A stretch of DNA of 38,407 bases from a virus (taxonomy: Duplodnaviria > Caudoviricetes), in the IMG/VR virus record IMGVR_UViG_3300012346_000007, positions 1 to 38,407 of that record. One strand, given 5' to 3'. The notes below the pieces were generated by a model that did no database searches, was not told the origin of the DNA, and saw only the letters and a list, made by a program, of their open reading frames with translations. A program made the position numbers and the translations under genes. Below, piece after piece: positions 911 to 14,300 of this stretch. The stretch's first letter is position 1; each line of letters starts with the position of its first letter.

Positions 911-1081
911 ATGGACTACGCAGAATTCTTATTAGAAGCAAGAAAGAACTTGAAATTATATGAAGAAGCTGTTATAAAAAGGGACTTCGAGAAAGCACAC
1001 GAACACGCATTAAATACGTTTGCTGAAGTCCGATTACTAATGCAGATTGCGAAAGATTCAAAGGATGTCAAAAAGGGATAG
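911..1081 (+). CDS. Hypothetical 56-aa protein (missed by the ORF track)
   Basis: ATG911 to TAG1081 encodes MDYAEFLLEARKNLKLYEEAV...KKG. GGAG lies upstream and the ORF fills the gap between pol and the next gene. Confidence 0.7.
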   Translation: MDYAEFLLEARKNLKLYEEAVIKRDFEKAHEHALNTFAEVRLLMQIAKDSKDVKKG

Positions 1082-1259
1082 ACCGATGCAAGCCGACATG
1101 ACCCAACAGGAGGTAGCAGATGCCTTGGGTACGACAAGGGCGGCAGTTGCAGACATCGAGAAGCGAGCATTACGTAAGCTACGAAACGAGTTATCAAAAC
1201 GTGGCTATACGATGGAAGATTTTTTCACTTATCAAAAGAAGAGGGTACTAAAAATATGA
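1065..1259 (+). CDS. Small HTH protein, sigma-70 region 4-like
   Basis: MTQQEVADALGTTRAAVADIEKRALRKLR resembles the sigma region 4.2 pattern (TLEEVG...VTRERIRQIEAKALRKLR). ATG1065 is preferred over TTG1047. Confidence 0.75.
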   Translation: MSKRDRPMQADMTQQEVADALGTTRAAVADIEKRALRKLRNELSKRGYTMEDFFTYQKKRVLKI

Positions 1260-4929: not shown

Positions 4930-5076
4930 ACGGGTTGACTTCATTTCCCATATAACCGTATCAGTTAAGGCTATTAGTTAGATGTTTTCCCTTCACGGGG
5001 CATCTTCCCTCCGAGATAGTGACTTAACCGATTGACCTCCGTAAGGGGTCGTTTTAATCAAAACGTGTGTTTTGGT
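4930..5076 (+). other. Putative structured intergenic element (four consecutive hairpins) upstream of the helicase
   Basis: Pairings seen by eye: 4930-4937/4953-4959; a long imperfect stem 4960-4991/4997-5032; a GTAA (GNRA) hairpin 5034-5050; and 5057-5064/5069-5076. Confidence 0.55.
5034..5055 (+). terminator. Possible intrinsic terminator or attenuator hairpin
   Basis: GACCTCC-GTAA-GGGGTC followed by GTTTT (short U-tract). Confidence 0.4.
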
Positions 5077-5098
5077 CGTATTCCTATTGGAGAAGAGA

Positions 5099-6649
5099 TT
5101 GCAAATCATAGAAAATAAGGCGTTGCTACTTAAAGTACGTGACCCAAATCGCATTACCACAGTAATACCAAGAAGCAAAGTATTAGATACAGGTGAGGTG
5201 CTAGTTAAGTGGGGGCTAGATGAAGCTCAAGTATTAAAGAACCTACGATACAAAGATGTACCATCGCCAATCCGTGCACATTATAACTGGCCTGGCCTGT
5301 ATAAACCGTTTGCACACCAACGTACAACTGCTGAGTTTCTGACTCTGCACCGCCGAGCCTTTTGTTTTAACGAACAAGGCACAGGTAAAACAGGCTCAGT
5401 TATATGGGCGGCTGACTACTTAATGAACATTGGGGTTATTAAACGGGTGCTGGTTCTATGCCCACTATCCATCATGCAATCGGCTTGGCAGAACGACTTG
5501 TTCAGGTTTGCTATGCACAGGACAACGGCAATCGCTCATAGCTACTCAAGAGAGAAACGTATCAAAGCCGTACAAAGCGATGCTGAATTTGTTATCTGTA
5601 ACTTTGATGGGCTAGGCATTATCAGAGATGCGGTGTTTGAACAGGACTTTGACCTAGTAGTTATTGACGAAGCCAATGCTTACAAGACCGTATCCACAAC
5701 ACGTTGGAAAACTCTTAACTCAATTATCAGACCTAAGACTTGGCTATGGATGTTAACAGGCACACCAGCCTCACAGTCCCCAACAGATGCGTATGGCTTA
5801 GCACGATTGATTAACCCACAAGGGGTTCCAAGATTCTATGGTTCTTTCCGAGACATGGTGATGTTTAAGCTGACCCAGTTTAAGTGGGTTCCAAAACCTA
5901 ATTCAGAGCAGACAGTTCACACAGTATTGCAACCTGCAATACGCTTCACAAAAGAAGAGTGCCTTGATCTACCTGACATGACATACACAACTAGGGATAT
6001 ACCCTTAACTGCACAACAAGAAAAGTATTACGAAGCTATCAGAAAAGATATGTTAGTGGTAGCCGCAGGGGAAGAAATTACAACAGTCAACGCCGCCGCA
6101 AACTTGAATAAATTACTCCAGCTTTCATGTGGTGCAGTCTATTCGGATAGTGGAGAGGTCGTTGAGTTCGATGCCTCTAATAGAATCAATGCGTTAAAGG
6201 AAGTGATTGACGAGGCTAGTCATAAGGTGTTAATATTTGTGCCCTATCGACACGCTATTGAGATTGTTACGGAAGAATTGAAAAGGTCAGGATATACTGC
6301 GGAAATTATAAATGGTGCAGTCTCAGCAGGTAATCGCACAGACATCTTTGCTCGTTTTCAAGGCGACAAAAACCCACAAGTCCTTGTAATCCAACCACAA
6401 TCTGCGGCACATGGAGTAACACTAACTGCGGCTAATGTAGTGGTATGGTTTTCCCCTATTACTTCAGTTGAAACTTATCTGCAAGCTAACGCTAGGGTAC
6501 ATAGAGCAGGGCAACACAACCCTTGCACAGTAGTGCACTTACAAGGGTCCCCAGTAGAAAAGAAAATGTACAAGATGTTACAAGGGAAGGTAGATATACA
6601 TACAAAAATGATTGACCTTTATAAAAATATAATTGAAGATGACTCTTGA
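5099..6649 (+). CDS. SNF2-family (SF2) helicase/ATPase
   Basis: EQGTGKT Walker A, IDEA Walker B, LTGTP motif III and QANARVHRAGQ motif VI. Start is likely TTG5099 after the GGAGAAGA RBS. Confidence 0.92.
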   Translation: MQIIENKALLLKVRDPNRITTVIPRSKVLDTGEVLVKWGLDEAQVLKNLRYKDVPSPIRAHYNWPGLYKPFAHQRTTAEFLTLHRRAFCFNEQGTGKTGSVIWAADYLMNIGVIKRVLVLCPLSIMQSAWQNDLFRFAMHRTTAIAHSYSREKRIKAVQSDAEFVICNFDGLGIIRDAVFEQDFDLVVIDEANAYKTVSTTRWKTLNSIIRPKTWLWMLTGTPASQSPTDAYGLARLINPQGVPRFYGSFRDMVMFKLTQFKWVPKPNSEQTVHTVLQPAIRFTKEECLDLPDMTYTTRDIPLTAQQEKYYEAIRKDMLVVAAGEEITTVNAAANLNKLLQLSCGAVYSDSGEVVEFDASNRINALKEVIDEASHKVLIFVPYRHAIEIVTEELKRSGYTAEIINGAVSAGNRTDIFARFQGDKNPQVLVIQPQSAAHGVTLTAANVVVWFSPITSVETYLQANARVHRAGQHNPCTVVHLQGSPVEKKMYKMLQGKVDIHTKMIDLYKNIIEDDS

Positions 6650-6674: not shown

Positions 6675-6697
6675 ATAGATATAACGAAGGAGAAGAG

Positions 6698-7078
6698 ATG
6701 AGTGATATAACCGCAGATAAGCTAGTCAAGGCTTACATAAAGATTAGAGATAAACGTGCAGAACTATCTAAGCAAGATAGAGAACTAGAAGAGCAAATGG
6801 AAGTTATACAAACCGAACTACTTAGCATTTGCAAGGACACAGGAGCCGATGGATTAAAGACCCAGTATGGAACTGTAAGCCGTAGATTAAGTAAAAGATA
6901 TTGGACAAGTGACTGGGAATCTTTTTATGCGTTCATTAAAGAACACGATGCTATGCACTTTTTACATCAAAGAATTTCTAATGCGAATGTGGAAACATTC
7001 TTAGAGGAAAACCCCGATTTGCACCCGCCGGGGCTTCAAGCGGATGCGTCTTACACAGTAACAGTACGTCGTAAATAA
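6698..7078 (+). CDS. Conserved phage protein with N-terminal coiled coil (Gam/Gp157-like)
   Basis: AGGAGAAGAG RBS before ATG6698. A coiled coil is followed by KTQYGTV...DW...PPGL. The family assignment is tentative. Confidence 0.6.
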   Translation: MSDITADKLVKAYIKIRDKRAELSKQDRELEEQMEVIQTELLSICKDTGADGLKTQYGTVSRRLSKRYWTSDWESFYAFIKEHDAMHFLHQRISNANVETFLEENPDLHPPGLQADASYTVTVRRK

Positions 7079-7087
7079 CAGGAGAAG

Positions 7088-7975
7088 ATGATGAGTAAAG
7101 AACTCGCAATGTTGGACATGAATTTACCAGCGCATTTACAAGCGTTGGAGTTGGACGATACTACTAAAGCCCTTATGGGTAGCGGTGGTAGCGGTAGTAA
7201 ACGTATCTCTATTGAGGGTGGCGTATGGCGCTTGCTCGTAAATGGTAAAGAGATTGCACAGAAAGAAGAGCGTAATCTTAATGTGGTTATCGTAGCGGCT
7301 TCCTCAAAGGTTGCTCGTACGTACTACGCTGGTACTTATAAGAAGGGTGTATCTGCACCTCCTGATTGCTGGTCTGCTAACGGCGACTATCCTGATAAGT
7401 CTGTTGAATCCCCACAAGCTACTGGGTGCGCTAACTGCCCACAGAACATTAAAGGTTCAGGTCAGGGTGATGGTCGTGCTTGCCGATTCAGCCAACGTAT
7501 TGCAGTAGTTTTGGATAACGATATTGGTGGCGATGTATTCCAATTGGTACTTCCTTCTACATCAATCTTCGGTGAGGGTGAAGCTGGTAAGTGGCCTTTG
7601 CAGATGTACGCTAAGATGATCGGTGCTAAAGGTGTTCCTATTACTGCAGTTGTAACTGAGATGCGTTTTGATACTGCAAGCTCTACACCTAAGATTACTT
7701 TCAAACCCGTACGTTTCTTAGAAGCTAACGAGATTGAGAAAGCAATCGACCAAGGTAAGAGCACTGAGGCAATCAAAGCAATTACCATGACAGTAGCTAA
7801 AGTAGATAAAGACGCACCTAAGTTAGATGCTCCAGCTAAGGTTGAAGTTAAGTCTGTTGCCGTTGAAGTAGAGGGTGTTGAATCCGAACCTACTAAACGT
7901 ACTACTAAGAAAGAAGAGCCAGCCGCTAAGAAGGACTTAAGCAAGATTCTTTCTGACTGGGATGAAGAGGAGTAA
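7088..7975 (+). CDS. Putative single-stranded DNA-binding/annealing protein
   Basis: Lies between helicase and primase and has Cys residues (PDCWS, CANC, ACR), a flexible linker and an acidic C-terminal tail WDEEE. Start is 7088 or 7091. Confidence 0.6.
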   Translation: MMSKELAMLDMNLPAHLQALELDDTTKALMGSGGSGSKRISIEGGVWRLLVNGKEIAQKEERNLNVVIVAASSKVARTYYAGTYKKGVSAPPDCWSANGDYPDKSVESPQATGCANCPQNIKGSGQGDGRACRFSQRIAVVLDNDIGGDVFQLVLPSTSIFGEGEAGKWPLQMYAKMIGAKGVPITAVVTEMRFDTASSTPKITFKPVRFLEANEIEKAIDQGKSTEAIKAITMTVAKVDKDAPKLDAPAKVEVKSVAVEVEGVESEPTKRTTKKEEPAAKKDLSKILSDWDEEE

Positions 7976-7977
7976 TC

Positions 7978-8208
7978 ATGTCCAAAGGATATGCGAGTAG
8001 CTTTATCAATGAGGTAAATGCTTCGGACAAATCCAAGATAGGGGTACAGCTGGGAATCGTATGCACCAAACGGGATATTCCTGTAACTGATGTGTCTGAT
8101 TTCTTTACTGTATCCCGCATGACGGTCTACTCTTGGTTTCGTGGTAAAACTAATGTCCCTGAGAAACATTGGGACAAGATGAAAAAACTTGTTGATAAAT
8201 TGAAATAG
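7978..8208 (+). CDS. Small Cro/XRE-like HTH protein
   Basis: VTDVSDFFTVSRMTVYSWFRG HTH pattern and GAGGAG RBS. Confidence 0.75.
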   Translation: MSKGYASSFINEVNASDKSKIGVQLGIVCTKRDIPVTDVSDFFTVSRMTVYSWFRGKTNVPEKHWDKMKKLVDKLK

Positions 8209-8214
8209 TTGTGT

Positions 8215-8297
8215 GGGGGGCTAGGTTAGCTACCGAAAAGGATATACCGCCGTCTATCCCTGCCCATCCCTTTTTATAATGACGGCTAAAGGCGGCT
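8215..8297 (+). promoter_or_regulatory. Putative cis-regulatory RNA structure in the primase leader
   Basis: Stems GGGC 8218-21/GCCC 8262-65, GGT 8224-26/ACC 8232-34 and GGATA 8240-44/TATCC 8255-59. The loop TACCGCCGTC is complementary to 8281-8286 and 8291-8295. Confidence 0.55.
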
Positions 8298-11162
8298 ATG
8301 TTAAATACAAATGAATTCTTATCTGCAATACTTCCCGACAGTGGGTCGTACTGTGTGGTAGGACTAAAAATAGATGGAAGCCCAAGACAAAAGTTTGTGG
8401 GAAGTATCGAGGAAGTAAACGCTCTAGCACAGAAATTAGTAGAAGAACAATACAATGCCTACTTTGCTTTAGCTTCGTTTACTGACCCAAAAGAAGGCAG
8501 AACTGCCAAGAATGCACAGGCTTTAAAGTCTTTCTTTATTGATATTGATTGTGGTATGGGTAAACCCTATGCCGACCAAGCTGAGGGTATGAGCGCCCTT
8601 AAAGCGTTCCTTAAAGCTACAAAGCTACCTAAGCCTACTGTGGTCAATTCAGGCAACGGTATCCATGCGTATTGGGTGCTTAGCGAGGCTTTGCCTAGCG
8701 CTGAATGGAAACCCCTAGCCGAGCAATTTAAAATGCTCTGTGCCATGCACAAGTTCGAGGCAGACCCATCGGTTACTGCGGATACTGCACGCATACTGCG
8801 TATTCCAAACACCCTTAATTTTAAAGATCCACAAAACCCAGTCCCAGTAGAGGTATTACTTACAAGCCCCCTGGTTGCTATATCAGCTATAAAAGATGTT
8901 ATACAGACTTGTGTTGGTGGTGAGGATATTTTTGCTGGCATGACAGGTCAGCCGTTCGTACCCCGTCAAATGGATGCAATGACCCTAGCGTTAATGGGTA
9001 ACAACATCTCACGATTCAAGACGATTATGATTAAGAGCGCCGAGGGTACAGGTTGCCCACAACTCTTACATATTTACGAAAACCAAGCGACAATAGATGA
9101 GCCTCTTTGGAGAGGAGGGCTAAGTATTGCCCAAGCGTGTGTGGATAGGGATAAAGCCATCCATAGCCTGTCTAAGCGCCACCCTAGTTATTCAGCTAGT
9201 GAAACAGAACGTAAGGCTAATGAAACAAAAGGTCCTTACACCTGCGCTACATTTAAGAAACTAAACCCAAGTGCTTGTCAAGGATGCCCTCATACATTTA
9301 CTTCCCCTATTCAATTAGGTAAGGAGTTTAACGAGGCTACCGAAGAAGACAACACAGTAGAAGTTCCAGCAGTAGAAGAAGGTGAAGCGCCAACAATCTA
9401 TCAGATTCCTAAATACCCATTCCCATATACACGGGGAGCGGCTGGTGGTATCTACACCAAGATGAAGGACGAAGAAGGCGTAGAAGAAGTAATGATGATT
9501 TACCCATACGACTTTTATGTAGTCAAGCGTATGAACGACCCTGATAGGGGGGAAAGTCTTTTAATGCGTTTGCATTTACCAAAGGACGGCGTTAAAGAAT
9601 TCATCATGCCTTTGACAGATGTGCTGGCTAAAGATAGATTTAGAGATGCAATCGCTAAGCAGGGCTTGGCAGTATTAGGTAAGAAACAGGACATACTTAT
9701 GGCTTATATAACACGGTGGGTAGAAGAATTGCAAGCAAGCACAGAAGCAGAATTGGCACGTAAACAGTTTGGTTGGTTGCCTGACGACTCAGCATTTATT
9801 CTTGGGGATAAGGAGATTACCGCTACTGAGATTAAATACAGCCCTCCTACCGCTACGACCATTGAACTCGTACCTATGTTCAGAGAGAAAGGTGACTTCC
9901 ATGTTTGGAAAGACGTCATCAATGCGTATGCTAGAGAAGATATGGAGGCTAAGGCTTTTGCTTTCTTTATGGGCTTTGGCAACACACTATTGAAGTTTAC
10001 TAACCTCAAGGGCTACTTACTTAGTCTTAAATCTCAAGGGTCTGGGTCTGGTAAGACGACTGTATTGCACACCATTGGTAGTATCTATGGGCACCCTGAA
10101 GATAGCTTTATGCGGGTTAAGGACACATACAATCAGAAGCTACAACGTATCGGTACATTCCAAAACATCCCTATCTTGTTTGATGAGATGACCAATATGG
10201 ATCCAATGCAGAAGTCTAACTTAGCTTATGACATTACCGAAGGACGTGCTAAGAACCGTATGCAGTCTCAAAACAATGCTGAGCGTCTTAACCATACTAA
10301 GTGGGCAACAGGGTTAATTACCTCTACTAACCGCTCACTACGTGATGACTTGCTTTCTATCAAGGCTTTTCCTGAAGGCGAACTGATGCGTATGATGGAG
10401 TTGCATATCTTTAATGACGCTAACGACGATCCAGTATGGGCAAGACAACACTTTGGAAGACTGCACACTAACTACGGGCACGCTATTTTCCCATTCATGC
10501 AGTACGTGGTTGGTAATCTGCCTGAAGTAATTGCGTTCCTAGGGACTATCCAAACCAAGATTGAAGCGGCGGCAGATATTAAATCTCAAGAACGTTATTG
10601 GTCAGCTATGGCGGCTATCGCTATTGCAGGTGGGATTATTGCTAAGAACCTAGGGCTACACAACATTGACCATAGACCCGTAATGGCGTACATCATTAAG
10701 CATATTAAAGAGTCTAGAACGCAGAACACACAGATGGTGGCTGAGAATAGCGACTTCCTTAGTGGGTTTATCCAGCGTAAGTTCCATGAGGTATTGGTTA
10801 TTAACGGCAAGCACGACCATAAGACAGGCTTGGAGACAGGTCCGATTAGAGAGCCACGGGGTTCATTGACTGCACGTTATGAGCCTGATACAAAGCTTTT
10901 GTATGTGGTAGCCAAGGAATACCGTTCAGAGTGCAACAAAGCGCAGTTAAACTTTGACGAGTCATTAGCTATGCACAAGAAGAGTGGGGCTTATTTAGGT
11001 CAGAAACGCAAGCGTATGACTTCAGGTACTATTGTGGATACCAATCTAAATGCACCAGCCTTGGTATTCGATGTAACTAAACTGGAGTTCTTCCGTGAAG
11101 AAGTTTTACTAAATGCTAAAGATTCTGAATCAGATATTCTTGATCCCGTGGAAGCGACTTGA
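8298..11162 (+). CDS. DNA primase-helicase (AEP/RepB-type primase + DUF927-like + P-loop helicase)
   Basis: AEP-like motifs FFIDID, SGNGIHAYW and ARILRIP; Cys cluster C...CQGC; FGW; Walker A GSGSGKTT; Walker B ILFDE. Confidence 0.88.
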   Translation: MLNTNEFLSAILPDSGSYCVVGLKIDGSPRQKFVGSIEEVNALAQKLVEEQYNAYFALASFTDPKEGRTAKNAQALKSFFIDIDCGMGKPYADQAEGMSALKAFLKATKLPKPTVVNSGNGIHAYWVLSEALPSAEWKPLAEQFKMLCAMHKFEADPSVTADTARILRIPNTLNFKDPQNPVPVEVLLTSPLVAISAIKDVIQTCVGGEDIFAGMTGQPFVPRQMDAMTLALMGNNISRFKTIMIKSAEGTGCPQLLHIYENQATIDEPLWRGGLSIAQACVDRDKAIHSLSKRHPSYSASETERKANETKGPYTCATFKKLNPSACQGCPHTFTSPIQLGKEFNEATEEDNTVEVPAVEEGEAPTIYQIPKYPFPYTRGAAGGIYTKMKDEEGVEEVMMIYPYDFYVVKRMNDPDRGESLLMRLHLPKDGVKEFIMPLTDVLAKDRFRDAIAKQGLAVLGKKQDILMAYITRWVEELQASTEAELARKQFGWLPDDSAFILGDKEITATEIKYSPPTATTIELVPMFREKGDFHVWKDVINAYAREDMEAKAFAFFMGFGNTLLKFTNLKGYLLSLKSQGSGSGKTTVLHTIGSIYGHPEDSFMRVKDTYNQKLQRIGTFQNIPILFDEMTNMDPMQKSNLAYDITEGRAKNRMQSQNNAERLNHTKWATGLITSTNRSLRDDLLSIKAFPEGELMRMMELHIFNDANDDPVWARQHFGRLHTNYGHAIFPFMQYVVGNLPEVIAFLGTIQTKIEAAADIKSQERYWSAMAAIAIAGGIIAKNLGLHNIDHRPVMAYIIKHIKESRTQNTQMVAENSDFLSGFIQRKFHEVLVINGKHDHKTGLETGPIREPRGSLTARYEPDTKLLYVVAKEYRSECNKAQLNFDESLAMHKKSGAYLGQKRKRMTSGTIVDTNLNAPALVFDVTKLEFFREEVLLNAKDSESDILDPVEAT

Positions 11163-11313
11163 ACCTAAACAGTCGATTTTCATACCGTGCCTAGACCGCA
11201 AAGCCCATGAAAAGGAGTTACTAAAGGAGGCAGAGCGGCTAGGTATTGAGGTTAAATGCAAACAAGTGGTAGAAGATGGGAAGTATGGCTTGCGCTTATG
11301 GCGAGTTAAGTGA
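11113..11313 (+). CDS. Hypothetical 66-aa protein, last gene of the early arm
   Basis: Overlaps the primase end by 50 nt. The sequence is plausibly globular (IPW...SIFIPCLD...GLRLWRV). Confidence 0.6.
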   Translation: MLKILNQIFLIPWKRLEPKQSIFIPCLDRKAHEKELLKEAERLGIEVKCKQVVEDGKYGLRLWRVK

Positions 11314-11319
11314 TATAGT
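11290..11319 (+). promoter_or_regulatory. Candidate sigma-70 promoter (extended -10) for a small RNA
   Basis: TTGCGC (11290-95), 18-nt spacer, TG-A-TATAGT (11311-19). There is no + strand ORF between it and the terminator. Confidence 0.45.
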
Positions 11320-11325
11320 TACCCC

Positions 11326-11381
11326 ATTCTTCTCCTCGACCCACATTGAGGATTTAACCCCGCTTCGGCGGGGTATTTTTT
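11326..11381 (+). ncRNA. Candidate ~55-nt small RNA with an anti-RBS 5' seed
   Basis: Lies between the candidate promoter and the terminator. TCTTCTCCT (11328-36) is the reverse complement of the AGGAGAAGA RBSs at 6688 and 7080. Internal hairpin TCCTC/GAGGA. Confidence 0.4.
11357..11381 (+). terminator. Rho-independent terminator at the junction of the convergent arms
   Basis: ACCCCGC-TTCG-GCGGGGT is a perfect 7-bp stem with a C(UUCG)G loop, followed by ATTTTTT. Confidence 0.9.
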
Positions 11382-14300
11382 AGTAACCAGCCATTACCCG
11401 TAGTTTGTGCACGTTTTTAAGTAGCTTTTTCTCTTGCTCACGGATACGCTGAATCTCTCTGCCTTTTTTCTCGGCATCCATTCTAGCTTCAGGCAAGTCA
11501 TAGATATGGTTCTCATACTCACGTAACTTGGTCAACTGCCTACCGATATTGTTTACTTGAGACTTAACCTTCATTAGGTCTTTGTTTTCGGCAAACAATT
11601 CTTTGTATTCTTCTTTACGACCTTGCTTCTGCATAGCGTTTAATGTGGTGTTAATCTTGTCCACTTCCTCACGCAACTCATAAAAATCGTTCTTATCGGC
11701 ATTACCATATTCCCGTGCAACAAACGCACTTAGGCCGGGGGTAGTAGCAATTGCGTCTTGCCAACTCTTTTCAGGTTTTGGCTTATCTTCCCCAGCGTTA
11801 ATGATAGCGCTAGTAGCTTGCAATGCCAATCCGCCAGTAGTACCCATGTAACCTTTAATCAGATGGTCTACATTTACTGGGGCAATCAAACCTGTTTTAC
11901 CAATTAACTTAGCCAACTCAGAAGTACTATTGGTATATTGCTCTTCGGTAATCTTGTTTGCAATACCCTGACCTACAATAGAACGTCCTGTAAAGAAGTT
12001 ATGGTTTGTTGCAACTTCCAGTATCGGTTTAACGGCTTGTGGTACAGCAGTAGGACTCATTACTGCGTTAGCTAACGCATCGCTCATAGCACGGCGAATC
12101 TTTTTACCATCAGTAAATGCGTTGTCGGTCATACCCAAATAGGTATACTCAGCAATAAGTTTAGGCAGTAAAGTCAAGTCACTACGCAACGGCAACATAA
12201 AGCTAGTGCCAGGAATTAACAGGTGGCGGTCACGAATTTGAGGATCCATCTTCTGATAGTCTTCGTCATCACTTGCAATAGCGGCATACATAAAGGCTAA
12301 AGCGCCGATCTTTAATGCGTTGCTAGTTAATACTTTAAACGCTTCTTTGCGTTGCTGGGGTGCAATACCTTTACCTGATATAACTTTATAGACTACGTTT
12401 TGGGCCTGTAAATACGCACCAAAGAACGGTACTACCTGACGCATCATCTGAATCTTGCCTGATGCACCCGCACGTTTAAAGTTAATAATCTCAAATGCCC
12501 GTTCAACTGCTAGAGCCTTGTCGCCTGTTTCTTTCATGGTCAGGTTATAGATAGCTTGACGCACCGCATTGTCAGAAGCCATTGCAAACTTCTCAAGGGC
12601 ATTACTAATCTTACCAGTCTTACTTTCAGACTTTAAACCAGCCATAATCTCAGCAGTATCACGAACAAATGTAGCTGAGTAATCTCGAACGCCCACTGCA
12701 CCATACTTGGTCAACTCGGTAGCAGTTTCACTTCTACCCCGTAAAGTCTTAGTAAACTCTTTAGCAACTTCCAAAGGTAATAACCAAGGATGCTTTAATC
12801 CCGAAGTAAGCATTGCACCAAATGAATCTTGGGACAACTGGCTAATAGAGAACAAAGGCATTAACACAATGTTCTTACGTAAGAAGTTTGCGATAGAAGA
12901 GGCAATACCAAAATGAGGAATAGCGGCAGATTCGATACCTGTAAATGCGTGCACAAACAATGGGTCTTTAAATTCTACCTTCTTCTTAATACCGTTTTCC
13001 CATATATCAATAGTGTTTTGTTCACGTTTAACACGGGCATCTTGACGTAAATCGGTAACTTCATCAGGGAATAACTGCTTAGCTGTGTTGTATAGATTTA
13101 AGGCACTACGGTTCTTAACAGCGCGGGATATAGTATAGCTAGTCCAGCGCTCCATATTATCAAAGATGTTTGCAACTTCTTGCTCACTACCCTCAATCTT
13201 GTAGCCTTTAGCAAAATCAATTAAGCCACGACCATACTCTTTCGGACCTGCACCACCCGCTAATTGGTCTTCACGGTAAAACGGCACATAGTCCATGTAA
13301 TCTAGTAATTCTTCGGCTTGTTCTTTGTTGTATAGGCCGCCTTGAATTGCCACTTCCATAGCATTTTTACGTACTTCGTTCCAGCTTTTTTGTAGATCTC
13401 TTAGCTCAGGAATCATCGTAAAGAACTTAAGGCCTGCATCAATTTCTGCTTGAGTCATGTGGCTATAAACAGAACGCTTAGCCTGTGAAAGACCTTTTAA
13501 ACGATCGGATACAAAAGCTTGTTGTGCGTAGGCTTCTGCTTCTTTAAAAGATATTTCATACTTATCTGCGATACTAGAAAGCTTATCTTGGATTAGTTTA
13601 GACCAACTATCTGCTTTATCTACGGCTTTCCACTTGTAAGATTTAGCGTCGTACTCTAGTCCACCATGCTGTAGAAACTGCATACCAAGGGCATCTGCAT
13701 GAGTAGCTTGAGCGGTACTAACTTCATACATCATCTCTCTGATGGTTTCCCAAGACTTACCACCAGCCTCTAATCCTTTACGGATAGCATTGTTCAACGC
13801 AGCATCTGCGGAGAATAGCATTGTTTCTGCGGTGTTTAAGAACCTAGAAAGACCTTGTTTTGCGGCAGCTGAACTCTTAGTAGAGTTTTTAAATGATTGG
13901 AAAGGTCCTGTTTCTATCGTAGGCTTAGCACGGCGCTCTACACCCGTAGCCTTTAAGTTAGCCGCAAGTTCATCACGTTTAACATTAACCGTAGGCATTG
14001 TTTCTTTGCCTGTTATTACATCTTCTTGAACCTTACGACCTGTAGCCATACTGCGGTCAGCTAGCATTAAACCAGCAGCCAAAGCGCTTAACTTCTGAGT
14101 AGGGGATAGTCCTAATGCAGTCAACACAGCACGGACAAACGCAGTAAACAAACTTTGGTTCTCTACACGGTAAGGAATCTGTGCTAGGGTTTGTTGAAAC
14201 TGACGGTTAGACATGAGTTCAGATGCAAACTCAGTAAGGCTTTCCATACCATACTCTTCTGCTAGCCCGGGTTCTGTACGTTTAATAAACTCGTATAGGT

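What the first reader, a model, noticed from the sequence alone, without database searches (positions are those of the whole stretch)
11290..11381. Candidate phage small RNA whose 5' seed is antisense to an RBS shared by three replication genes
Seen: three consecutive early genes share an unusually extended RBS. These are the helicase (GGAGAAGAGA-TTG, 5089), the 126-aa gene (AGGAGAAGAG-ATG, 6688) and the SSB-like gene (AGGAGAAGATG, 7080). The 66-nt gap at the arm junction carries the exact reverse complement TCTTCTCCT (11328-11336) on the same + strand. It sits just after a promoter-like TTGCGC-N18-(TGA)TATAGT and before a hairpin (TCCTC/GAGGA) and a strong UUCG terminator. CTCCTC also matches the GAGGAG RBS of the HTH gene at ~7967. 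Established: bacterial trans-acting sRNAs commonly have a 5' seed plus terminator and block RBSs. Inference: a ~55-nt sRNA, or the processed 3' end of the early mRNA, that coordinately represses the phage's own replication genes, acting as a timing or lysis/dormancy switch. Alternative reading: on the - strand the same bases form RBS + ATG GGG TAA, a Met-Gly minigene.
Basis: partly seen in the sequence, partly recalled or inferred. Interest (0 to 1): 0.8.

Follow-up and report, generated by a model that had tools for sequence, protein, structure and literature searches.

The report
Phage small RNA silencing early genes
A large family of uncultured phages keeps a short promoter-to-terminator element whose front end mirrors the ribosome-binding sites of some of their own early genes, and mirror and target change together between lineages, so it likely makes a small RNA that would turn down those genes, although no transcript has been seen.

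Summary
In the window alone the match is borderline (116 of 3000 shuffles do as well); relatives make the case. Of 117 distinct junctions, 106 keep a -10-like hexamer and 107 a + strand terminator; 86 of 101 have a purine at the predicted start (window A11326). The seed covaries with the ribosome-binding site of the 126-aa gene (own 8.15 nt vs foreign 5.73 nt, 30 clusters; sister swaps 13:4; repeated in a second set). The SSB-like gene covaries in one set only, helicase weakly, HTH hardly. In 11 genomes, 49 of 190 early-strand but 6 of 138 late-strand GGAG starts match at 8 nt or more. Best reading: a 56-nt trans-acting RNA that likely blocks translation of the phage's own early genes, probably as a feedback timer; no tyrosine integrase in 10 of 10 genomes weakens the dormancy idea. 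The minigene is not conserved. It is built like the Burkholderia double-hairpin RNAs but scores below the Rfam cut-off. No transcript seen; a DNA-site rival remains. This scan noted similar RNAs before on other phage DNA.

The parts
11290..11295 (+). -35-like hexamer TTGCGC inside the Leu-Arg codons of the 66-aa gene
   Evidence: Leu codon here is TTG in 65 of 79 junctions with Leu, against 77 of 534 other Leu codons of the same gene (rows are related). Poorly kept in distant clades.
11311..11319 (+). extended -10: TG-A-TATAGT; the TG is the start of the TGA stop of the 66-aa gene
   Evidence: TAnnnT in 106 of 117 junctions, 101 counts at two adjacent offsets, also where the ORF runs on through it; stop is TGA in 68 of 83 against 365 of 961 called genes.
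11326..11381 (+). predicted 56-nt small RNA (start inferred at A11326)
   Evidence: +1 purine in 86 of 101, -1 pyrimidine in 87 of 101; predicted length median 60, range 43-104; fold z -4.9. No transcript seen.
11326..11336 (+). 5' seed ATTCTTCTCCT, complement of the early-gene RBS tag
   Evidence: CTCC in 99 of 107 relatives with a terminator; covariation with targets.
11333..11352 (+). hairpin 1, pairs the last four seed bases
   Evidence: Predicted in the window and most relatives folded one by one, but absent from the RNAalifold consensus of 27 near relatives: register varies.
11357..11381 (+). intrinsic terminator: GC hairpin with UUCG loop and U run
   Evidence: 107 of 117 relatives have a + strand hairpin with T run, 2 of 107 have the matching A run for the other direction; 4 of 7 pairs show compensatory changes.
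6688..6700 (+). main target: RBS tag AGGAGAAGAG and ATG of the 126-aa gene (6698-7078; Pfam PF22709 Mu Gam/Gp157-like at 29.5 bits, cut-off 27; DUF7307-like)
   Evidence: strongest covariation; best duplex in the window, -16.2 kcal/mol.
7080..7093 (+). second target: RBS tag of the SSB-like gene (7088 or 7091 to 7975)
   Evidence: Predicted fold resembles OB-fold ssDNA binders (Z 9.0 to 9teh_I, rmsd 3.7, 152 aligned; Z 5.4 to RB69 gp32). Covariation, not.
5089..5101 (+). third, weaker target: RBS tag GGAGAAGAGA and TTG of the SNF2-type helicase (5099-6649)
   Evidence: Pfam PF00176/PF00271; tag kept in the near clade; z 1.5-3.3, null.
7967..7980 (+). HTH gene RBS GAGGAG: not supported as a specific target
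   Evidence: z 0.5-2.4, null.
11113..11313 (+). conserved 66-aa gene of unknown function that carries the promoter
   Evidence: Family alignment A1; no Pfam or PHROG hit; fold search gives no clear match (best Z 5.5).

Best explanation
The element is a conserved promoter-seed-terminator unit whose seed matches and covaries with the ribosome-binding sites of the phage's own early genes, so it likely makes a 56-nt small RNA that would pair over those sites in trans and block their translation. Steps: (1) host sigma-70-type polymerase starts at A11326 from an extended -10 promoter built into the end of the last early gene (inferred from conservation); (2) the RNA ends at the UUCG terminator, which would also end early read-through (inferred); (3) the unpaired 5' bases would nucleate on the lineage-specific spacer between Shine-Dalgarno core and start codon, and pairing would then extend over GGAG (predicted; the tag gives specificity beyond the generic core); (4) ribosomes would be excluded from the 126-aa Gam/Gp157-like gene first, the SSB-like gene and other tagged early genes next (from the established mechanism of anti-RBS sRNAs; untested here). 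Purpose, inferred: a threshold or timer that builds up with genome copy number and damps early, DNA-handling proteins as infection moves on (about 60 in 100 of this reading), rather than a dormancy switch (25) or exclusion of kin phages (15).
For: Promoter geometry, +1 purine, polarity of the terminator. Own versus foreign seed-target match for the 126-aa gene: 8.15 vs 5.73 nt, -17.5 vs -13.3 kcal/mol, 30 clusters at 70% primase identity, p at the floor of 2000 permutations; SSB-like 6.97 vs 6.08 nt, 26 clusters; exonuclease, the 103-aa gene and the 66-aa gene null. Sister-pair swaps at 80%: 126-aa gene 13 wins, 4 losses, 2 ties by run length, 14:4 by energy; SSB-like 16:1 by energy. Second set of 38 new metagenome junctions: 35 with -10, 38 with terminator, 32 with CTCC; 126-aa gene 9.38 vs 6.34 nt, 8 clusters, p 0.0002. 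Examples of different tags each mirrored by their own seed: AAGGAGAAACGACG (L278, 14 nt), AACAGGAGAATGT (L275), GAAGGAGCAACT (L266), GGAGAGTGA (L011), CCTTGGAGAA (G009). Genome-wide, GGAG-bearing starts with a match of 8 nt or more: 49 of 190 early strand, 6 of 138 late strand, p 7e-8; own vs foreign 6.68 vs 6.03 for early, 5.26 vs 5.27 for late. Decoy stretches null.
Against: No transcript or repression shown. G-U versus A-C test does not favour RNA pairing overall (126-aa gene 11 vs 20, though 9 vs 2 on the start-codon side; SSB-like 9 vs 13; helicase 3 vs 8). SSB-like did not repeat (p 0.09 and 0.71) and was 6:5 by run length. Helicase and HTH null. Primase start, meant as a control, gave z 2.6-3.1 by run length but not by energy. 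G010 has the unit but 0 of 67 called starts match at 8 nt; L182, L030, L473 and L474 match their 126-aa gene poorly. 10 of 117 junctions lack the terminator. Part of the seed is paired (mean unpaired probability 0.62 over 19 matched runs); net energies for the window are modest (about -9, -6 and -3 kcal/mol for the three targets, my sum values). Clusters are related, so p-values overstate independence; gene starts were called by a simple script.
Confidence: 0.72

Rival explanations
1. The seed works as the 3' tail of the long early message (or a piece cut from it), folding back on or pairing with upstream ribosome-binding sites; the promoter-like site is secondary.
For: The unit lies directly behind the last early gene on the same strand and shares its terminator; all three window targets lie upstream in the same orientation.
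Against: -10 hexamer, TG and +1 purine sit at fixed spacing, and conservation begins at +1 while the six bases before it vary; codon and stop biases fit a promoter. A terminator at 5033-5051 and the int-alpA element at 8214-8285 break up the arm, and tagged genes lie far upstream in complete genomes. Both sources could coexist.
Confidence: 0.1
2. The tag is a binding site for a phage protein (a DNA operator, or an RNA site with the minus-strand copy as decoy); the inverted copy behind the promoter is one more site.
For: Complement on + equals identity on -, so covariation cannot tell RNA pairing from a shared motif; the G-U test was inconclusive; two HTH-type proteins are encoded. Pope 2011 leaves the like sites of Cluster K mycobacteriophages unexplained.
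Against: The tag changes in sequence, length and side of the GGAG core between clades, which would need repeated re-tuning of a protein; it is non-palindromic; the single inverted copy always lies inside a transcribed-looking unit that points the other way from a decoy.
Confidence: 0.09
3. The RNA is mainly a weapon against host messages, a general anti-Shine-Dalgarno RNA like the Burkholderia toxic sRNAs, and the match to phage genes is a side effect.
For: Best Rfam match is RF02278, 28 bits in the window and 33.5 in L012; overexpressed ncS27 slows growth (PMC5688073). Some clades carry a second CUCC motif in a loop.
Against: The part outside the generic core tracks the phage's own early genes and not its late genes; a host-directed seed gives no reason for that.
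Confidence: 0.05
4. A minus-strand RBS plus minigene (Met-Gly).
For: A start codon follows the minus-strand GGAG in 62 of 98 junctions.
Against: None in 36 of 98; frames run from 1 to 73 aa with no shared peptide; no minus-strand terminator signal. The apparent start is what a complement of RBS-plus-spacer looks like.
Confidence: 0.02
5. Chance match next to an ordinary terminator.
For: Window-only shuffles reach the count in 4-8 of 100.
Against: Conservation down to about 37-40% primase identity and covariation.
Confidence: 0.02

Closest known systems
Betaproteobacteria toxic small RNA / double-hairpin RNAs of Burkholderia (Rfam RF02278; PMC5688073 and PMC4603805, passages seen)
   Same: About 57-67 nt, CU-rich 5' end complementary to ribosome-binding sites, one hairpin, then terminator; the window RNA aligns over the whole model.
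   Different: 28 bits against a cut-off of 50 (best of the relatives scanned 33.5); chromosomal, 3-5 copies, predicted host metabolic targets; here one copy in a phage with a lineage-specific seed that tracks the phage's own genes.
c4 antisense RNA of phages P1 and P7 (review PMC12197685, parts 1-2 of 6 and passages seen)
   Same: Phage RNA that pairs near a ribosome-binding site of the phage's own message and blocks translation; specificity differs between related phages.
   Different: c4 targets the antirepressor message of temperate phages through loop sequences; no Rfam C4 match here; here several early genes, a 5' seed, and no integrase found.
Start-associated sequences (SAS) of Cluster K mycobacteriophages (PMC3203893, passages seen)
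   Same: A non-palindromic tag around AGGAG on non-structural genes, with a single copy on the opposite strand in four genomes.
   Different: 13-bp tag on 11-19 genes, function unknown, no RNA proposed in the passages seen; here shorter tags on fewer genes, with the complement inside a promoter-terminator unit and covariation shown.
SviR of the Vibrio cholerae satellite PLE (bioRxiv 10.1101/2022.04.08.487710, abstract and section list seen)
   Same: Trans-acting mobile-element sRNA that regulates several of its own operons.
   Different: Encoded by a satellite, lowers translation of helper-phage targets and alters processing of its own messages.

Membership tests
RF02278 toxic / double-hairpin sRNA | Score at or above Rfam gathering cut-off (50 bits) | tested here: not met
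   28 bits window; 33.5 and 23.2 in 2 of 11 relative loci scanned.
RF02278 toxic / double-hairpin sRNA | About 60 nt, two hairpins, CU-rich anti-RBS stretch | tested here: met
   56 nt, two hairpins; median 60 nt, CTCC in 99 of 107.
RF02278 toxic / double-hairpin sRNA | Second CU-rich stretch in the loop of hairpin 1 | tested here: inconclusive
   Present in the L031 and L011 clades, absent in the window.
RF02278 toxic / double-hairpin sRNA | Growth inhibition on overexpression | not testable with these tools
   Bench test.
C4 antisense RNA (RF01695) | Match to the C4 covariance model | tested here: not met
   Not among the matches up to E 10 for 11200-11500; none at gathering in the window.
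C4 antisense RNA (RF01695) | Target is an antirepressor message in a temperate immunity region | tested here: inconclusive
   No antirepressor label among the proteins scanned (20 window genes; 38 of 90 G001 genes); no PF00589 in 10 of 10 genomes.
Trans-acting base-pairing sRNA (general class) | Own promoter and intrinsic terminator | tested here: met
   By sequence conservation only.
Trans-acting base-pairing sRNA (general class) | Seed complementary to targets elsewhere, with compensatory change | tested here: met
   126-aa gene; SSB-like in part.
Trans-acting base-pairing sRNA (general class) | Discrete transcript, and seed-dependent regulation | not testable with these tools
   Needs 5' end mapping and reporters.
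Trans-acting base-pairing sRNA (general class) | Hfq or ProQ dependence | not testable with these tools
   Host unknown; U-tailed terminator fits Hfq binding (recalled).

The most novel reading that the evidence does not exclude
A widespread family of apparently lytic phages runs an RNA-only regulon: each lineage barcodes the ribosome-binding sites of chosen early genes and carries one matching small RNA that sets the early-to-late switch and could also silence incoming kin with the same barcode. Seed and barcodes re-diversify together, giving natural orthogonal translation switches, and such tags may be what unexplained start-associated sequences in other phages are for.
Probability: 0.35. 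Interest if true: 0.85.

Novelty: new variant of a known kind. Interest (0 to 1): 0.7.

Why it matters
How lytic phages turn down early genes after the level of transcription is little known, and the phage sRNAs covered in the review parts I read act mostly in temperate control or on host genes. Here more than 100 natural seed-target variants give ready compensatory pairs, so the mechanism can be tested in a laboratory strain without culturing the phage. It would also offer a testable function for start-associated tags described without one, and a set of short orthogonal repressors. Five paper searches aimed at this arrangement returned no paper holding all terms, and the listings showed none on it; the library lacks most subscription journals, so this does not show it is not in print.

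Tried and rejected
Expression: no RNA holder listed; the one run, an RNA guess kept as contigs, gave one 194-base contig inside the primase gene; no evidence either way. Collection scan with a loose DNA pattern gave 120 stretches, of which 5 held the 66-aa gene: mostly chance. G-U asymmetry: inconclusive. The idea that the anti-Shine-Dalgarno core is always masked and the 5' end always a toehold: fits the near clade but not the family (core 0.66, 5' part 0.53 unpaired). Hairpin 1 as a fixed consensus structure: not recovered. The 66-aa protein as an RNA chaperone: no clear fold match. SSB-like protein against solved sequences: no match. A late gene (phrog_28737) as conserved target: 11, 8 and 7 nt in three genomes but 4-6 nt in seven, rejected as general. 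Cultured distant relative Pseudomonas phage Rollin (28% primase identity) has overlapping genes at the junction and no hit to my RNA model, nor has the Undibacterium locus L303. The model R1 from the near clade found G001, G004, G007 and L296 units but not those of G009 and G010. Host not determined: matches in bacterial assemblies were scattered over unrelated bins. Kimelman 2012, the paper that named the toxic sRNAs, is not held; I cite it only through PMC5688073 and PMC4603805. Supplementary Table S1 of PMC12197685 (38 phage sRNAs without function) was not opened and may bear on novelty. Look-ups of earlier scan notes by place and sequence were empty.

Full report
Setting. The window is a 38.4-kb virus record, 58% complete. 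A + strand arm encodes DNA polymerase, exonuclease, SNF2-type helicase, a 126-aa protein, an SSB-like protein, an HTH protein, a primase/helicase and a 66-aa unknown; a - strand arm encodes virion proteins and ends in a 1953-aa LPD38 protein. The arms converge at 11314-11379. Near-complete relatives are 58-65 kb. The nearest cultured records share under 30% primase identity over most of the protein. The host is unknown.

The observation. The promoter does not pass the consensus scan, the terminator does. 11326-11381 folds into two hairpins (z -4.9); the last four seed bases are in hairpin 1. In the window alone the match is borderline: 116 of 3000 shuffles, or 237 of 3000 with the CTCCT core fixed, hit as many starts. 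The three named genes rank 1-3 of 50 called starts by duplex energy with the first 16 bases, HTH ranks 5th.

The unit is conserved. The 66-aa gene was found in 159 locus records, 122 distinct junctions. Anchored on its G-x-R-x-W motif (2 loci could not be anchored), 117 distinct junctions had 120 bases or more. Of these 106 have TAnnnT in a 10-position zone, with 101 counts at two adjacent offsets; 107 have a + strand hairpin plus T run; 101 have both. In those 101, TG precedes the hexamer as in extended -10 promoters (T 74, G 86), position -1 is a pyrimidine in 87 and +1 a purine in 86; the predicted length is 43-104, median 60; CTCC is in 99 of 107; only 2 of 107 show the A run that a minus-strand terminator would need. 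The hexamer stays in place where the gene reads on through it. The Leu codon under the -35 is TTG in 65 of 79 against 77 of 534 elsewhere in the gene, and the stop under the TG is TGA in 68 of 83 against 365 of 961 genome-wide. At 70% clustering 30 of 30 representatives have the hexamer, 21 the TG, 23 the +1 purine (these were drawn from loci with a terminator). The terminator has compensatory changes in 4 of 7 pairs; hairpin 1 does not appear in the consensus of 27 near relatives, although single folds mostly show one. Ten junctions lack the terminator and eleven the hexamer. That this is a sigma-70-type promoter with a start at A11326 is inference from this geometry and from recalled promoter rules.

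Seed and targets change together. I used 103 of the 117 junctions (those with a terminator and a called start for the 126-aa or SSB-like gene), one representative per cluster, five random draws, and compared each RNA body with -22..+6 of each gene, own against foreign. At 70% (30 clusters): 126-aa gene 8.15 vs 5.73 nt (z 10.7), SSB-like 6.97 vs 6.08 (z 5.1, 26), helicase 6.07 vs 5.49 (z 2.5, 21), HTH 5.32 vs 4.90 (z 1.7, 15); exonuclease, the 103-aa gene and the 66-aa gene null; primase z 3.1 by run length but null by energy. At 60% (15 clusters) the 126-aa gene stays at z 8.0, SSB-like 2.9, helicase 1.5. Anchoring the match on GGA gives z 9.4, 3.8, 2.5, 1.8; an upstream decoy stretch and the opposite strand give z -2.1 to 1.9. 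To limit shared ancestry I swapped partners between disjoint nearest pairs: at 80%, 126-aa gene 13 wins, 4 losses, 2 ties (p 0.025), energy 14:4; SSB-like 6:5 by run length, 16:1 by energy; helicase 5:5 and 8:5; HTH 4:3 and 3:8. A second set from metagenome contigs gave 38 junctions not seen before, from the same broad clades: 35 with hexamer, 38 with terminator, 32 with CTCC; the 126-aa gene repeated (9.38 vs 6.34 nt, 8 clusters, p 0.0002), SSB-like did not (p 0.09 and 0.71), the rest were null. The tags differ in letters and in side: AGGAGAAGAG (near clade), GGAGAGTGA (L011), GAGAAGAGTGC (L224), GAAGGAGCAACT (L266), AACAGGAGAATGT (L275), AAGGAGAAACGACG (L278), CCTTGGAGAA (G009), each mirrored by its own seed. 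The spacer parts are not complementary to the 16S rRNA tail (recalled), so ribosome preference does not explain them. Several 126-aa starts were miscalled in the first set (for example L271, L273, L294), which should dilute rather than inflate the signal.

A small early regulon. In the window plus ten near-complete relatives, with a simple gene caller, 55 of 430 early-strand and 9 of 531 late-strand starts matched their own RNA at 8 nt or more. After dropping four rows (three in a duplicated end of G009, one ORF overlapping the RNA in G005) and keeping only GGAG-bearing starts: 49 of 190 against 6 of 138 (p 7e-8); own beats foreign for early genes (6.68 vs 6.03, p 5e-5) and not for late genes (5.26 vs 5.27). 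The eleven genomes are not independent (four share nearly one seed, two another). Extra tagged genes include an AAA ATPase (8-11 nt in 6 of 10 genomes) and a DUF3150 protein (8-10 nt in 4 of 10). G010 has none of 67.

The targets. The 126-aa protein passes Pfam PF22709 (Mu Gam/Gp157-like) narrowly and resembles DUF7307 clusters; PHROGs calls its family a minor head protein, so its role is open. The SSB-like label is supported by fold: model pLDDT 80.9, best matches a phiC31 integrase-RDF fusion chain (Z 9.0), BRCA2 OB domains (7.0) and RB69 gp32 (5.4). The helicase is SNF2-type.

Mechanism. Shown: the layout, its conservation, and the covariation. Inferred: transcription from 11326, pairing in trans, ribosome exclusion. 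For the window, duplex energies are -16.2, -14.0 and -13.2 kcal/mol, with 6.7 to open hairpin 1 and 0.3, 1.0 and 3.3 to open the targets, which orders them as the covariation does. Purpose: no PF00589 in 10 of 10 and no PF00239 in 5 of 5 near-complete genomes, and no repressor or partition label among the genes scanned, so an integrated-prophage switch is unlikely; a non-integrating carrier state is not excluded. A short stable RNA from a host-type promoter would rise with genome copy number while its targets are needed early, which makes a feedback timer the most economical reading. This step is inference only.

Rivals. The minigene fails: a start codon in 62 of 98, frames of 1-73 aa, no shared peptide. 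A protein-binding site cannot be excluded by covariation, and the G-U test did not decide; the polarity of promoter and terminator and the free change of the tag argue against it. A 3' tail of the early message could supply the same seed in addition. A host-directed role is possible on top but does not explain tracking of own early genes.

Known kin and novelty. No Rfam family reaches its cut-off in the window. The best sub-threshold match is RF02278 over the whole model, described as double-hairpin RNAs with CU-rich anti-RBS stretches (PMC5688073, passages; PMC4603805, passages). It works like these and like P1 c4 (PMC12197685) but is a member of neither by score. The tags recall the Cluster K start-associated sequences (PMC3203893, passages), a lead I took from earlier scan notes. 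Those notes describe similar anti-RBS RNAs in other phage genomes; they are unchecked and I did not test them, and none came up for this genome or its look-alikes. My reading was written down before I saw them. Verdict: a real, conserved feature; most likely a trans-acting small RNA against the phage's own early ribosome-binding sites (0.72); new variant of a known kind; interest 0.7.

Noticed in passing
window 8214-8285 (+), between HTH gene and primase; L182:2400-2472, L034:1975-2042: An int-alpA RNA motif (Rfam RF02996): 33.5 bits in the window, cut-off 35.8; above cut-off in 2 and below it in 5 more of 11 relative loci. A second structured RNA in the same arm, at the primase leader, whose start lacks a GGAG site.
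   Followed up: partly
L011/L012/L015 junction; L031-L036 junctions: A second CUCC motif in the loop of hairpin 1; in L011 it reads ATCACCTCCT, the same letters as the bacterial 16S rRNA tail (recalled).
   Followed up: partly
window 7091-7810: Best fold match of the SSB-like protein is a chain of a phiC31 integrase-RDF fusion (Z 9.0), although no recombinase was found in the genomes tested; the large serine recombinase domain itself was not searched.
   Followed up: no
window 4960-5060: Non-coding stretch with a terminator-like hairpin (5033-5051) just before the helicase RBS.
   Followed up: no
L412:71-123 (G010): A second pyrimidine-rich stretch plus terminator that scores 28 bits with my RNA model, in the one genome whose junction RNA matches none of its starts.
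   Followed up: partly
window 11376-11382: The stop codon of the 1953-aa late gene overlaps the U run of the terminator in the window and many relatives, and the hairpin has no good U run on the minus strand, so late read-through could make an antisense strand to the small RNA.
   Followed up: no
window 1047-1259: Small sigma-70 region 4 / HTH_3 protein in the early arm, a candidate regulator.
   Followed up: no
G009 (L408, L411): The record repeats the 126-aa and SSB-like genes at both ends with slightly different sequences: overlap of two strains or a terminal repeat.
   Followed up: no
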